From contig CAVQRT010000015.1 in assembly GCA_963715195.1 (NCBI GenBank), forward strand, positions 1 through 17,278: a DNA stretch of 17,278 nucleotides. Reading direction: 5' to 3'. The position numbers and the translations under genes are program-made. Of the stretch, positions 6,635 through 15,386 are shown piece after piece. How positions within the stretch are numbered: position 1 is the first letter of the stretch; every line of letters begins with the position of its first letter. The notes beneath the pieces are model-generated. The model had not been told where the DNA came from. It worked only from the letters and a program-made list of their open reading frames with translations, and searched no databases. The stretch comes from Thermodesulfovibrionales bacterium (GTDB lineage Bacteria; Nitrospirota; Thermodesulfovibrionia; Thermodesulfovibrionales; SM23-35).

Positions 6635-7317
6635 ACACCCATTACTGGCCGAAGACAATCTTTGAGGCTAAAGCTGTCCAGAGCACTCTCAAGAACAAAG
6701 TCAGAATAATCCCCCTAAGGAAGAAACCCCGATACCTTGCCAGTGTTGACGCAGCGTTTAACGGTGACAGGGTCATCGGTGCAGCATGTCTCTACCGTTA
6801 TCCGGAGATAATGCTTGTTGATGAAACATATGCGGAATTGAGGAATCTGTTTCCGTATGTCCCGGGATTTCTCAGCTTCAGGGAAGGTTCGGTTATTATC
6901 AAGTCTATCGGGCAATTACCGATCAAACCTGATCTCATTCTTTTCGACGGGCAAGGCATAGCGCATCCCCTCGGATTGGGGCTTGCATCTCATATGGGGG
7001 TAGTTCTGAATATACCTGCAATCGGATGTGCAAAATCGCGGCTGGTCGGGGAATACAAAGAACCAAAAATGGAGAAGGGTTCGTGGTCCCCCCTTCTCTA
7101 TAATGGTAATGTAGTTGGCGCTGTGCTGAGGACAAAGGATAGCGTCAGGCCTCTTTTCATTTCGCCCGGCCACAGAATTGACCTGCAGACTTCAATCGAA
7201 ATTGTCCTGAAATGTATCACTAAATACAGAATCCCCGAACCCTTACGGAGGGCAGATTTCTTATCAAAAAGAATTAAAAGAGAAATAAGAGAACCCCACT
7301 TTGGGAAAGGGGGGTAA
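6631..7317 (+). CDS. nfi: Endonuclease V (deoxyinosine 3' endonuclease)
   Basis: SVDAAF, FPYVPGFLSFRE, FDGQGIAHP, GCAKSRL, FISPGH, YRIPEPLRRAD. TTG start overlaps the upstream stop. Confidence 0.95.
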   Translation: MNTHYWPKTIFEAKAVQSTLKNKVRIIPLRKKPRYLASVDAAFNGDRVIGAACLYRYPEIMLVDETYAELRNLFPYVPGFLSFREGSVIIKSIGQLPIKPDLILFDGQGIAHPLGLGLASHMGVVLNIPAIGCAKSRLVGEYKEPKMEKGSWSPLLYNGNVVGAVLRTKDSVRPLFISPGHRIDLQTSIEIVLKCITKYRIPEPLRRADFLSKRIKREIREPHFGKGG

Positions 7318-7328
7318 GGGGAGATTTT
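7294..7328. repeat. G/C-run REP-like palindromic element
   Basis: CCCCACTTT-GGG-AAAGGGGGG-TAA-GGGGAGATTT, an imperfect hairpin overlapping the nfi 3' end. Resembles a recalled CCCCCTTT...AAAGGGGG...GGGGGATTT repeat type. Confidence 0.5.
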
Positions 7329-7373
7329 TGGGAAAAATGAAGATATTCATAGTGAACTCTGCTCGAATGGTTA

Positions 7374-7434
7374 TCATTCCCGCTTGGCGGGAATCTTTAG
7401 ATTATTCAGGATATAGATATTCTGCGGGAATAAT
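7374..7434. repeat. REP-like hairpin (TCATTCCCGC...GCGGGAAT type) with degenerate partner; possible terminator between convergent genes
   Basis: Perfect 8-bp stem ATTCCCGC-TTG-GCGGGAAT (7376-7394); a second GCGGGAATAAT at 7424-7434. Confidence 0.55.
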
Positions 7435-7444
7435 GTAATCTCGA

Positions 7445-7786
7445 TCAGCAGGTCAAATGCAAAGCTGCGATAACTTTCCTCTCCTTCTGTAGTGCATGAA
7501 AAAGATCGATTGCTTTCCCTGTTCGTTCGATATGAACATGAATGCCTTTTGACTCAAGATGCGTTATGGTTTCCTTCGGGACTTTCATCACCCCGAGGGC
7601 CCCGGTTCCAATGATGACAGCCTCCGGATTGGCAGCGATCGCTTCTTTCAAATCCTCAGCATGCAGCGTATGACCTTCTTTCCGCCACCAGGAAGCATCA
7701 ACCCGGCCAGGATAAATGATGACATCTGATGTATACGTATTGCCGTCAATGACAATCTTTCCCCAGGAATAATGGTCGACCTTCAT
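7445..7786 (-). CDS. Mth938-like (DUF498/AAMDC) domain protein
   Basis: YSWGKIVIDGNTYTSDVII, WWRKEGH, VIIGTG..G, T..A...F, C-terminal AALHLTC. ATG 7786 preferred over GTG 7801. Confidence 0.88.
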   Translation of the reverse strand: MKVDHYSWGKIVIDGNTYTSDVIIYPGRVDASWWRKEGHTLHAEDLKEAIAANPEAVIIGTGALGVMKVPKETITHLESKGIHVHIERTGKAIDLFHALQKERKVIAALHLTC

Positions 7787-7840
7787 TTCACGTTGATCCA
7801 CCTTGTGTGTTATTCTGTGTTATTCTATATAGTATCATAC

Positions 7841-7938
7841 GGGAGTGTATAGGGCTCTGGTGTCCCTCCCGGACTTCAAATCCGGTGTTGCCTGTTACAA
7901 ACGGGCAGGGTGGGTTCGATTCCCACACGCTCCCGCCA
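7841..7938 (+). tRNA. selC: tRNA-Sec (anticodon UCA)
   Basis: 8-bp acceptor stem GGGAGTGT/ACGCTCCC, discriminator G, CCA; anticodon arm CCGGA-CTTCAAA-TCCGG; long variable arm TGCCTGT/ACGGGCA; T-arm GTGGG-TTCGATT-CCCAC; 98 nt. Confidence 0.96.
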
Positions 7939-12275: not shown

Positions 12276-12650
12276 ATGAAGATAAATTCAAAGAGATTTG
12301 CAGAAGAATGGTTTGAATCATGGAACTCACATGATCTGGATAGAATATTATCTCACTATAGTGATAATGTCGAAATCACTACACCAATGATTAAAGTTGC
12401 CACGGGAATAGAAACCGGAACACTAAAAGGAAAAAGAAATATTAGAGAATACTGGGAAACGGCATTGAAGAAAGTGCCAGATTTGCATTTTGAATTGAAA
12501 GAAATAACAGAAGGAGTGGAATCTGTAGCTATTTATTATCAATCGGTTTTTGGAAAAATGGCGATTGAAGTAATGTTTTTTGATGATGCAGGCAAAATAA
12601 ATAAGGTAATAGCGCATTACAGTAGAGTAGAGAACTGGCGTAGTAGCTAA
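12276..12650 (+). CDS. SnoaL-like / NTF2 family protein; last codons replaced by antisense intron sequence
   Basis: FAEEWFESWNSHDLDRILSHYSDNV, GK..IREYW, PDLHFE, VIAHY. Codons from 12622 onward derive from the intron. Confidence 0.9.
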   Translation: MKINSKRFAEEWFESWNSHDLDRILSHYSDNVEITTPMIKVATGIETGTLKGKRNIREYWETALKKVPDLHFELKEITEGVESVAIYYQSVFGKMAIEVMFFDDAGKINKVIAHYSRVENWRSS

Positions 12651-12678
12651 AGGCTCTATCTCCAGTTCCCCCTCATCA

Positions 12679-14620
12679 GTAGGGTCGAGGACTGGCGCGT
12701 ATCAGAGGAATTCTGCACGTCTCCAGCCCCCGCCTCGTCAAACATAGCATGCAGATTTCCCGCACTATGCTTTCCTTTCGGCTTCACTACAAGGGTTATG
12801 GTGCCTATTTGCCGGCAGTGCTTTTGAGTCCGTAGTACCTCACCTTATAATCAGCATAAAGCCTGAGGTGACAGTAAAACCAGTCTCTACTCCACCTGTC
12901 CCAGCCAAAGCCCTTACGTTTTCGAGATCTCATGAGATGACGTCTTATTTTCTTCTCGACCCAATCCTTTACATAACTAAAACATCGACTGGAATGCCCT
13001 ATCCGAAAGTAATTAACCCAGCCTCGGAGTTTCGGGTTGATCAACTCAATCACGCGTTCAACAGGTTGAGACATGAATCGCTGGAAAATCTCTTTAAGAT
13101 TTCTCAAGAGATTTGTCCGCGCCTTCATCCTCGGGGTGATGCGTAGCCCCCATTTCCCACTGAGTGTTATAATCCTCCGTATGTCGAACCCCACAAAGCT
13201 AAAGCTCTCCCCTTTCGTCAGGTCTACGACTTGGGTCTTTTCTTCGTTAACTTTTACATCCAGTCTCGCCAACTCTTCAAGAAGTCGTCGATATGCCCTC
13301 TGTAGTAACCAGTTCCAACGTCGATACCCGTCTACCAGTATCACAAGGTCATCTGCAAAGCGAGCGTACTCGATATAGGTAAAGCCAGATTTACCCGTCA
13401 CCGCCTTCGCCTTCTCAAGCATCCTATCCACCTCATTTAGGTAGATATTTGACAAGAGGGGTGAGACTACCCCACCCTGTGGAACTCCACGCTTACCGCT
13501 AGCTTTTAGTATGAGTCGCAGCAGCCACATCACTTTGTAATCGTCGACCCTTCTGGCTATCTTTTTCAACAATAGGTCATGACGCACCGTATCAAAATAC
13601 GCCTTGAGGTCAACATCGATGACTTGTGTCTTATTGTGAACGATCGCATCTGCGATTCGGTGCACCGCCTGATGCGCCGTTCGTTTCGGGCGATACCCGT
13701 ATGAACCCTCCTGAAAGTCAGCTTCAAAGATCGGTTCAAGAACAAGTTTAAGCGCTCCCTGCACTATTCGATCACGGATAGTCGGTATCCCAAGAATACG
13801 TAATTTCCCATTTCCTTTGGGTATTTCTTTCCGTCGATTTCGCATAGGCAGGTATCTCCCTGAAAGTAGTTCTCTCTGTATACTCAGAAGAAACTCTTCG
13901 CGACCGCTTCCCTCAATGGCTTCAAAGGTGACACCATCAGTTCCAGGTGCCCCATTATTCTCTTTGGCCATGACGTAGGCAGCTTGGAGCACCTCCATCT
14001 TGCATACATGAACGTACAATCCCCAAAACCGATGCTGCTTGTCGGCTTTCGCCTTGACGTATATTCTCCTCCTCAGGTCCTGCAGACTAACGGATGTCTT
14101 TGTCATCTCATCCCTGCCTTCCATTGTTGTTAGAGAAATGCCAAAAGTAGGGCCTCTTCGCTCCACAAGCATTACCCTGCTTCATCGCTACTACTGGCCC
14201 ATCCGTCACCCTTCCGCCTTCAGTCCACTTCCCAGTGTCTCCGGTTATAGGACTTACCTTGCTCCGGCGATTTCTCGCCGGGGCAGTTAGGGCTTCTCCA
14301 GTTGCTCGGTGTGTCCTTGCTGCCATGCCGCCGTTATCACCCCACTGAAGTGGAATAACCGTTTCAATCAGTTTTCGGTTATCCATGCTGCCTTCGCCCT
14401 ACGGTTGAAAGCTCGGCCTTCAGGGCTCCGTATTTTCGGGGCCACCTCCACGTTCACTTTCGTTGCGGCCTGGCAACTCGTTATCATCCTTCAGATGACA
14501 GTGTCGATGGGCTTCAGGATATCGGTTTCCCTTTACCCTGCCATCCTAACTACATGGCTTCTGACTGTTGCCATGGCAGGACTGTCTCCTGCTGAACACA
14601 CCAGCCTTTGCTGGACACAC
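12679..14620 (-). mobile_element. Inner group II intron (IIB-type RNA, 1942 nt) encoding RT/maturase, inserted in DV of the outer intron
   Basis: 5' GTGTG at 14620; epsilon' bulge AAGC (14511-14514); EBS1 AACCGT (14401-14406); DV AAGCATAGTGCGGGAAATCTGCATGCTATGTTT (12772-12740); DVI ending CTCG-A-CCCTAC with branch A at 12685. Confidence 0.93.
12805..14106 (-). CDS. ltrA: Group II intron reverse transcriptase/maturase, no endonuclease domain
   Basis: NNGAPGTDG, RILGIPTIRDRIVQ, SYGYRP, DVDLKAYFD, GVPQGGVVSPLLSNIYL, YARFADD, domain X LRGWVNYF. Ends soon after domain X. Start ATG 14106 (MTKTS) gives 433 aa. Confidence 0.95.
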   Translation of the reverse strand: MTKTSVSLQDLRRRIYVKAKADKQHRFWGLYVHVCKMEVLQAAYVMAKENNGAPGTDGVTFEAIEGSGREEFLLSIQRELLSGRYLPMRNRRKEIPKGNGKLRILGIPTIRDRIVQGALKLVLEPIFEADFQEGSYGYRPKRTAHQAVHRIADAIVHNKTQVIDVDLKAYFDTVRHDLLLKKIARRVDDYKVMWLLRLILKASGKRGVPQGGVVSPLLSNIYLNEVDRMLEKAKAVTGKSGFTYIEYARFADDLVILVDGYRRWNWLLQRAYRRLLEELARLDVKVNEEKTQVVDLTKGESFSFVGFDIRRIITLSGKWGLRITPRMKARTNLLRNLKEIFQRFMSQPVERVIELINPKLRGWVNYFRIGHSSRCFSYVKDWVEKKIRRHLMRSRKRKGFGWDRWSRDWFYCHLRLYADYKVRYYGLKSTAGK

Positions 14621-14657
14621 AACCGTACGTTCGGTTTTCCCGAATACGGCTTTCCAA

Positions 14658-14766
14658 TCATCTTCTTCCAGAGGCGTTCACAGTTTCCTTCTGCTTGGCA
14701 CTCTGGTATAGCCTTCTCCGAAGATTCCCGATTTAGAGGAGTTAATAGTCTGCCTAAGGCTGACAA
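14658..14766 (-). pseudogene. Internally deleted IEP remnant in domain IV of the outer intron
   Basis: SD GAAAGGAG, then LLTPL / frameshift / IGNLRRRLYQSAKQ (compare inner IEP LQDLRRRIYVKAK), joined directly to TVNASGRR* just before DV. Confidence 0.7.
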
Positions 14767-15386
14767 TCTCCTTTCCTTCTCTCCTTCGGAGACATGATGA
14801 AGGTATTGCCCCTTCCCTCTCCCAAAGTTATGTTGTCTTTGAGATACCAGCGGTAATATGAGCAACTCCGACTCCCTTATAGACCCGGTGAAACTTCGGC
14901 TTTCCTTATATCCACCAGTTGCTCCCGTTATCATCGAGACATCGATAAGGGTCTCCCGCGTTCATTCTCGTATGGCTTCCCCTGCGTGTCGCCCCTGTTA
15001 CCCCGGAAGTCCATCTATCGGTTACGGTAGTTTTCGTTAGGATAGATGCTTCGGTCTTCCCCAATGTAGGAACAGGGTCGACAACTTCATTCTGTTTTGT
15101 CGAGGCTACATCCAGAGTTCGCTCTCGCTACAACCCGCAGGTTCGCTCAGCTCCCTCTCGGAGCCTTTGTCAAGAAACTCAGTGCTTCAGGTTACCCTTT
15201 ACACCTCCTTCAAGCTACGTGGGTGAACTACCCAATTCCCACGACCGGACTTTAACCGGCAAGTCATACGTTTTACACGGCATGCCCTACGAACAAACAT
15301 CTACGGCATAATATGAGCAGTGAGAATTACTGATTGTAATATGCAAAAGATACTGATATTTTAGTATTTTTTAACAATTTCTTATC

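What the first reader, a model, noticed from the sequence alone, without database searches (positions are those of the whole stretch)
12622..15285. Group II twintron: RT-encoding intron inserted in catalytic domain V of an ORF-less intron
Seen on the minus strand: two full intron 5' regions in series and two 3' ends in series. Excising 14620-12679 restores ...CGTACGGTT|TGATGAGGGGGAACTGG, a canonical DV-DVI. Inner EBS1 AACCGT is the exact complement of the DV bases ACGGTT before the insertion. Known: bacterial twintrons and ORF-less introns are described. Inference: the inner element homes to the most conserved part of other group II ribozymes, an intron-on-intron parasite, and splicing is probably ordered inner first. 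Whether this lineage is undescribed cannot be judged here.
Basis: partly seen in the sequence, partly recalled or inferred. Interest (0 to 1): 0.85.

Follow-up and report, generated by a model that had tools for sequence, protein, structure and literature searches.

The report
Intron that invades other introns' cores
An intact mobile self-splicing intron sits inside the catalytic hairpin of another, gene-less intron; many of its relatives across bacteria occupy the same spot while their own copy of that hairpin has changed so that they would not hit themselves, which points to a parasite of introns.

Summary
Observation confirmed. A 1942-nt RT-encoding group II intron (14620-12679, minus strand) splits the last base pair of domain V of an ORF-less intron (15285-12622). 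A second copy (1941/1942 identical) sits at the same base of another host intron in this genome, and the empty site occurs in related genomes and in public DNA contigs, so this is no mis-assembly. Flank-blind sampling puts 52 of 119 metagenomic and 35 of 67 genome/plasmid relatives in a domain V (background 0.05-0.14%), in seven phyla and several host classes. EBS1 (7 nt), EBS2 and EBS3 covary with the site. The lineage's own domain V has mostly lost the target (2 of 26 against 14 of 19 in other introns), and four members have retuned EBS1 to that altered form. Limits: about half the relatives sit elsewhere, EBS1+EBS3 alone leaves 96 empty matches here, and no splicing was seen. Intron-homing introns and a Euglena domain V twintron are published; I found no paper on this lineage, but key papers were unavailable. 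This scan found the same landing site before on other DNA.

The parts
14621..15285 (-). Outer (host) group II intron, 5' part: domains I-IV and 32 of 33 bases of domain V; ORF deleted, short N-terminal remnant left in domain IV
   Evidence: RF02003 88 bits; 84-87% identical to three other copies in the genome; remnant reads like the start of the C25 copy's ORF
15065..15070 (-). Outer EBS1, pairs at 5 of 6 with the 5' exon end 15291-15286
   Evidence: Loop differs between the four genome copies and follows the exon in three of them; poor match in the C25 copy
14621..14652 (-). Outer domain V, interrupted part; triad AGC 14651-14649; its 3' strand is the inner intron's IBS1 (14627-14621) and IBS2 (14632-14629)
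   Evidence: Fold of rejoined flanks; covariation scan
12679..14620 (-). Inner group II intron, 1942 nt, complete
   Evidence: RF02003 111.7 bits; second copy at G000:C25:59888-61829 differs at one base; exact skip in public DNA contigs
14430..14433 (-). Inner EBS2 position (reads -9 to -12, the domain V bulge region); only 2 of 4 pair here
   Evidence: Covariation scan over 27 representatives
14400..14406 (-). Inner EBS1, 7 of 7 complementary to the site
14337..14337 (-). Inner EBS3 (A), pairs with the first 3' exon base T at 12678
   Evidence: Top covarying column for +1, 89% Watson-Crick in 27 representatives
12805..14106 (-). Intron-encoded protein, 433 aa, RT + maturase, FADD motif, no endonuclease domain found
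   Evidence: PF00078, PF08388; TIGR04416 369.9 bits, cut-off 300; motif
12740..12772 (-). Inner intron's own domain V, variant stem that pairs with its EBS1 at only 3 of 7
12679..12739 (-). Inner domain VI, bulged A at 12685
   Evidence: Fold
12622..12678 (-). Outer intron, 3' part: last base of domain V and domain VI, bulged A at 12628
12276..12650 (+). SnoaL-like gene whose last codons are interrupted by the outer intron in antisense orientation
   Evidence: PF12680; frame ends inside the intron's domain VI; without the outer intron the frame would be 123 aa
15550..16701 (-). IS3-family element, in pieces, upstream on the intron strand (context; possible read-through source, inferred)
   Evidence: NF033516 below cut-off, rve and HTH domains

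Best explanation
The inner element is a recently mobile, endonuclease-less class F (g2-like) group II intron from a wide lineage whose main landing site is the 3' strand of catalytic domain V of other group II introns. Steps: (1) transcript from outside reads through host and inner intron (inferred; source unknown); (2) inner intron splices with its RT/maturase, which needs EBS1 to take 7 bases out of the host's domain V stem (inferred); (3) the RNP reverse-splices into DNA one base before the end of a domain V, guided by EBS1 (-1 to -7), EBS2 (-9 to -12) and EBS3 (+1) (pairing shown by covariation, reaction inferred from the family), with a replication-fork primer as for other endonuclease-less introns (established for the group); (4) because domain V is shared by all classes, any resident intron, often a dead or ORF-less one, is a site that costs the cell little (inferred); (5) the lineage's own domain V has changed so that it is mostly not a target (sequence shown, selection inferred). 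Some members have retargeted to other sites.
For: Two near-identical copies in two host introns about 85% alike, same base. 35 of 67 genome/plasmid relatives and 52 of 119 metagenomic ones pass a strict domain V test, background 0.05-0.14%; 5 of 5 inner 5' ends read in family genomes. EBS1-IBS1 pairing 5.58 of 6 against 3.65 shuffled, 0 of 10000 (31 clusters); 6.38 of 7 against 3.85 (79 loci). 39 of 43 members with the domain V-type EBS1 are in domain V-like sites, 6 of 36 others. Hosts of four Rfam D1-D4 models. Complete isolate plasmids L089, L090 show it. Own domain V pairs at 3.1 of 6 against 5.7 for the real site (17 representatives); 2 of 26 own domain V end in the target against 14 of 19 controls. 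In this genome both 7/7 domain V sites are filled and the three with 5-6/7 are empty.
Against: 57 of 119 metagenomic and 29 of 69 genome/plasmid loci are not in a domain V on the relaxed test. 96 empty EBS1+EBS3 matches in this genome and EBS2 only 2 of 4 here: the extra determinant is unknown, and purifying selection against insertions in genes may add to the pattern. G007 has an empty site identical to its two filled ones. Non-domain-V members mostly keep the variant domain V too, so it may be inherited rather than selected. No RNA joint for either intron boundary pair in two RNA runs, which hold only relatives. Loci are related, so the shuffles overstate significance. Tree is the quick one, with long-branch warnings.
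Confidence: 0.82

Rival explanations
1. No special preference: the intron inserts at any EBS1/EBS3 match, and copies survive mainly in other introns because those sites are neutral (survivor bias).
For: Relatives with the same EBS1 type also occur at matching non-domain-V sites (L007, L062-L064, L072); 4 of 43 in metagenomes; 19 of 29 hosts have no RT trace.
Against: 96 empty matches here against 2 filled, both domain V; a separate EBS2 column covaries with -9 to -12; EBS1 follows host domain V variants, e.g. between this genome and G007.
Confidence: 0.12
2. [quoted passage not shown]
For: The only intact close RT found in this genome is the inner one; three ORF-less host copies with a shared deletion lie at different sites, the fourth has a frameshifted ORF; trans action on ORF-less introns is published (PMC2882425, PMC4424553 passages).
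Against: Inner and host-family RTs are only 25-50% identical by segment; hosts elsewhere belong to unrelated classes; ORF-less empty hosts occur in family genomes with no inner-intron match, e.g. G014, G044 (G014 is 74% complete).
Confidence: 0.1
3. Assembly chimera of two intron repeats.
For: The genome is a 36-contig assembly with 6.57% contamination; no laid contig spans the whole stretch.
Against: Same junction in two contigs with different flanks, in G004 and G007, and in complete isolate plasmids; EBS covariation cannot arise from mis-joins.
Confidence: 0.01

Closest known systems
RT-motif-homing introns M.a.I5, UA.I3, P.l.I2 and the B. thuringiensis israelensis intron (PMC2504315, passages read; Dai and Zimmerly 2003 not read)
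   Same: Endonuclease-less IIB-like introns that home by EBS pairing into a conserved motif of other retroelements and make twintrons.
   Different: Their target is the RYADD codons of the ORF; here it is the ribozyme's catalytic hairpin, present also in ORF-less hosts. No self-avoidance is described in the passages read.
Euglena gracilis psbF twintron (as summarised in PMC8393795, passage read; original not read)
   Same: A group II intron inside domain V of another group II intron.
   Different: One fixed chloroplast case in a gene that must be spliced; no mobile lineage or repeated site reported in the passage; exact position within domain V not checked.
Thermosynechococcus elongatus TeI3/TeI4 twintrons (PMC2882425, passages read)
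   Same: Identical inner copies in diverged outer copies; ORF-less introns from one deletion.
   Different: Inner introns are ORF-less and insert in domain IV between two start codons of close relatives; here the inner has the RT and hosts are of other classes.
Trichodesmium Tr.e.I7/I8 twintron (PMC4649490, passages read)
   Same: Bacterial group II twintron; sequential splicing shown there.
   Different: Inner intron is in domain I, the host gene needs splicing; here domain V, antisense to the gene, splicing unshown.
Class F, variety g2 (PMC3552965, parts 1-3 of 4 and Table S2 read)
   Same: FADD motif, RT-X only, about 430-447 aa, introns of 1970-2006 nt; my clade is sister to the pBMB67 intron listed as g2.
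   Different: No target preference is given there; the pBMB67 intron (49% identical) is listed in a transposase and its site is not a domain V.

Membership tests
Mobile group II intron (inner) | Six-domain ribozyme with GUGYG start, AY end, domain V triad, bulged A | tested here: met
Mobile group II intron (inner) | RT/maturase ORF between domains III and V | tested here: met
   TIGR04416 above cut-off, PF00078 + PF08388
Mobile group II intron (inner) | EBS-IBS pairing with the flanks | tested here: met
   EBS1 7/7 and EBS3 pair; EBS2 2/4
Mobile group II intron (inner) | Splicing and retrohoming activity | not testable with these tools
   Two copies one base apart imply recent movement; no RNA joint seen
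Twintron | Complete intron nested in another; removal restores the outer | tested here: met
   (12 of 16 host-family domain V read are uninterrupted)
Twintron | Sequential splicing, inner first | tested here: inconclusive
   Joint absent from 2 of 2 RNA runs laid, which hold only relatives as contigs
Class F / variety g2 | FADD in RT5 | tested here: met
Class F / variety g2 | No endonuclease domain | tested here: met
   Only RVT_1 and GIIM found, ORF ends 28 aa after GIIM
Class F / variety g2 | 5-nt domain V loop of IIE/IIF introns (PMC3753933) | tested here: met
   Both domain V have 5-nt loops
Class F / variety g2 | Falls inside the g2 clade on the RT tree | tested here: inconclusive
   Sister (SH-aLRT 100) to the one g2 reference available; 9 other listed g2 members were not in the tree
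RT-motif-homing lineage (M.a.I5 type) | Insertion at the YADD codons of another RT | tested here: not met
   Site is domain V, downstream of any ORF
Class C (IIC) hairpin-homing introns | Short EBS1, no EBS2, insertion after a hairpin | tested here: not met
   7-nt EBS1 and an EBS2 column covary; site is inside the stem

The most novel reading that the evidence does not exclude
An undescribed, multi-phylum lineage of group II introns is an ancestral specialist on the catalytic domain V of other introns and is in an arms race over it: members changed their own domain V by several different routes to avoid self-insertion, and some (L040, L173, L182, L194) then retuned EBS1 to attack those escaped domain V forms. 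Because IBS1 is the strand that pairs with the host's catalytic triad, inner splicing and host domain V folding would be mutually exclusive, a built-in switch.
Probability: 0.45. Interest if true: 0.78.

Novelty: new variant of a known kind. Interest (0 to 1): 0.62.

Why it matters
Domain V is the one sequence all group II introns share, so an intron that homes there has a landing site in any genome that carries any intron class, at little cost to the cell. It gives a testable case of a parasite of selfish elements with self/non-self discrimination written into its own active site, shows which changes the catalytic hairpin tolerates, and means surveys that need an intact domain V-VI miss these hosts, many of which are ORF-less, a form reported as rare in bacteria (PMC4424553, PMC8919778 passages).

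Tried and rejected
First EBS1 call by best complementarity was circular and noisy; replaced by a fixed position in the hairpin. First 3' boundaries by global alignment were often wrong; replaced by a motif. The own-domain-V row was one base off; corrected. Promoter scan: 5 sites against 4.9 expected, uninformative. Exact-repeat search showed nothing relevant. Sequencing runs: none holds half the words; RNA runs X17, X18 hold only relatives and show no inner-skip joint, no evidence either way. The name B.th.I3 is used for two records: the pBMB67 intron (Table S2 of PMC3552965) is not the RYADD-homing one of PMC2504315, so I did not treat the sister group as RT-homing. Circularly permuted introns (PMC8637638 passages): domain order here is normal, rejected. 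Literature: nine searches listed no paper on a bacterial domain V-homing lineage; Simon et al. 2008 is not held; Michel et al. 2007, Dai and Zimmerly 2003 and the intron database pages were not seen. No structure prediction or protein-library search was run; not needed for the question.

Full report
OBSERVATION. On the minus strand two RF02003 5' regions lie in series (15262-15123, 88 bits; 14594-14458, 111.7 bits) and RF00029 matches only a domain V at 14654-14621. Removing 14620-12679 gives a normal domain V (AGC triad, AC bulge, 5-nt loop) and domain VI. The cut is one base before the end of the domain V stem. The inner intron encodes a 433-aa RT/maturase with FADD and no endonuclease domain. 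The outer starts at 15285: its EBS1 loop pairs with the 5' exon at 5 of 6 and varies with the exon in three of four genome copies. Its domain IV keeps only a remnant of the ORF start. The whole lies antisense in the last codons of a SnoaL-like gene, downstream of a broken IS3; no promoter stood out.

SAME GENOME. A second inner copy, one base different, is at the same position of a host intron about 85% alike with a frameshifted ORF (C25). Two ORF-less host-family copies on C16 and an unrelated intron on C31 are empty. Both filled sites pair 7/7 with EBS1; the empty ones 6, 6 and 5 of 7; the intron's own domain V 3 of 7. Against a simple model, 96 perfect EBS1+EBS3 matches elsewhere in the genome are empty.

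NOT AN ARTEFACT. The host family occurs in 28 of 57 family genomes; of 16 domain V read in 30 loci, 4 are invaded (one is this window) and 12 empty. All 5 inner 5' ends read in family loci, two of them from this genome, are at domain V; G007 also has an identical empty site. DNA contigs of runs X1 and X2 skip exactly 1942 bases; RNA runs X17 and X18 show no such joint, and no contig spans the whole stretch. Complete isolate plasmids L089 and L090 pass the test, L091 with an AAC triad, L088 and L092 do not, L093 had no readable 5' end.

RELATIVES. Seventeen had no readable 5' end or under 36 flank bases and were dropped. With 5 plasmid loci and the two home copies, 37 of 69 pass a strict domain V test (35 of 67 without the home copies), in 20 of 31 sequence clusters; background 126 of 87,242 and 573 of 1,124,976. 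Positive loci are labelled Nitrospirota, Thermodesulfobacteriota, Acidobacteriota, Pseudomonadota, Rhodothermota, Lentisphaerota and Patescibacteria. So domain V is the largest single target, about half, not the only one.

MECHANISM OF RECOGNITION. With EBS1 taken by position, pairing to the flank averages 5.58 of 6 (shuffled 3.65, 0 of 10,000) and 6.38 of 7 in 79 metagenomic loci (shuffled 3.85). A scan of every domain I column against every flank position in 27 representatives picked 14406-14400 for -1 to -7, 14337 for +1 and, more weakly, 14433-14430 for -9 to -12. Members with the domain V-type EBS1 are in domain V-like sites in 39 of 43 cases, others in 6 of 36. These loci are kin, so the p-values overstate. 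What excludes the 96 empty matches is unknown: EBS2, protein contacts, the distal hairpin in single-stranded DNA, or loss of insertions in genes.

HOSTS. Of 36 strict loci besides the window, 29 had 2.2 kb upstream: 19 show no RT trace, 6 a decayed and 4 an intact RT. I scanned 15 of the 19: 9 have a clear host 5' region within about 1 kb (RF02003, RF01999, RF02005, RF02012), 1 is a complex nest, 5 have none. Host RTs fall on several distant branches.

SELF-AVOIDANCE. In 17 representatives EBS1 pairs 5.7 of 6 with the real site and 3.1 with the intron's own domain V. 2 of 26 distinct own domain V end in the target against 14 of 19 other uninvaded ones, and some of the 5 misses look like lineage members. 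The change is made in different ways in different subclades. L040, L173, L182 and L194 sit in lineage-type domain V with an EBS1 changed to match; L175 and L235 too, EBS1 unseen. Against selection: most members with other targets keep the variant stem; only L083 has the canonical one.

TREE. Quick IQ-TREE, 90 rows, careful search unfinished: the lineage is a 73-row clade (SH-aLRT 99), sister to the pBMB67 intron listed as g2 (100); the C25 host RT lies outside, near Ni.ha.I1 (g3), a long-branch join. Domain V sites occur in most subclades, which fits an ancestral habit with repeated retargeting; I ran no formal reconstruction.

LITERATURE. Read as passages: PMC4424553, PMC4028801, PMC12584367, PMC3753933, PMC8919778, PMC3534033, PMC4649490, PMC2882425, PMC2504315, PMC8393795, PMC5572947, PMC8637638, PMC3245105, PMC4244168; PMC3552965 parts 1-3 of 4 and Table S2. 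Known: introns homing into RT motifs or domain IV of other introns, a domain I twintron that splices in order, and the Euglena psbF intron in domain V. Nine searches listed nothing on a bacterial domain V-homing lineage or self-avoidance; Simon 2008 is not held, and Michel 2007, Dai and Zimmerly 2003, the intron database and figure supplements were not seen, so prior notice cannot be excluded. Earlier notes of this scan report the same site in other genomes; they are unchecked and not counted as support.

VERDICT. Real, lineage-wide, a new variant of a known strategy. Shown: nesting, boundaries, repeated site, EBS covariation, altered own domain V. Inferred: retrohoming route, inner-first splicing, selection for self-avoidance, arms race. 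Interest 0.62.

Noticed in passing
window 7841-7934 (+): Selenocysteine tRNA, RF01852, 73.4 bits.
   Followed up: no
G000:C16:3803-4524 and 7181-7900: Two uninterrupted ORF-less copies of the host family, 96% alike in the 5' part, sharing the ORF deletion with the window's copy but with a different domain V-VI.
   Followed up: partly
L021, L023, L026, L058, L134, L143, L172, L197, L216: A sub-lineage with another EBS1 sits about 20 bases inside what looks like the 5' end of another intron.
   Followed up: partly
L032, L227: Members inserted in domain VI-like sequence of other introns, EBS1 matching.
   Followed up: no
L152, L220: Members inserted in a sequence that translates like the end of the window's IS3 first ORF.
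   Followed up: no
L128, L142, L151, L160, L162, L167, L169, L211, L214, L230, L231, L236, L237, L245: Sites share a T-run about ten bases upstream but differ in IBS1, each matched by its EBS1 where seen; possibly another niche.
   Followed up: no
L047-L054: Eight copies in one genome, seven of them inside a short inverted repeat.
   Followed up: no
L043, L040, L012: 5' and 3' flanks look as if they come from different host introns, as expected if recombination between inner copies swaps host domain VI.
   Followed up: no
L089:4934: The inner intron's 3' end is followed at once by 11 bases like its own 5' end and then unrelated DNA.
   Followed up: no
L059, L066, L067, L069, L084 (Rhodothermales): Dense nests of several introns of different classes around the inner element.
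   Followed up: no
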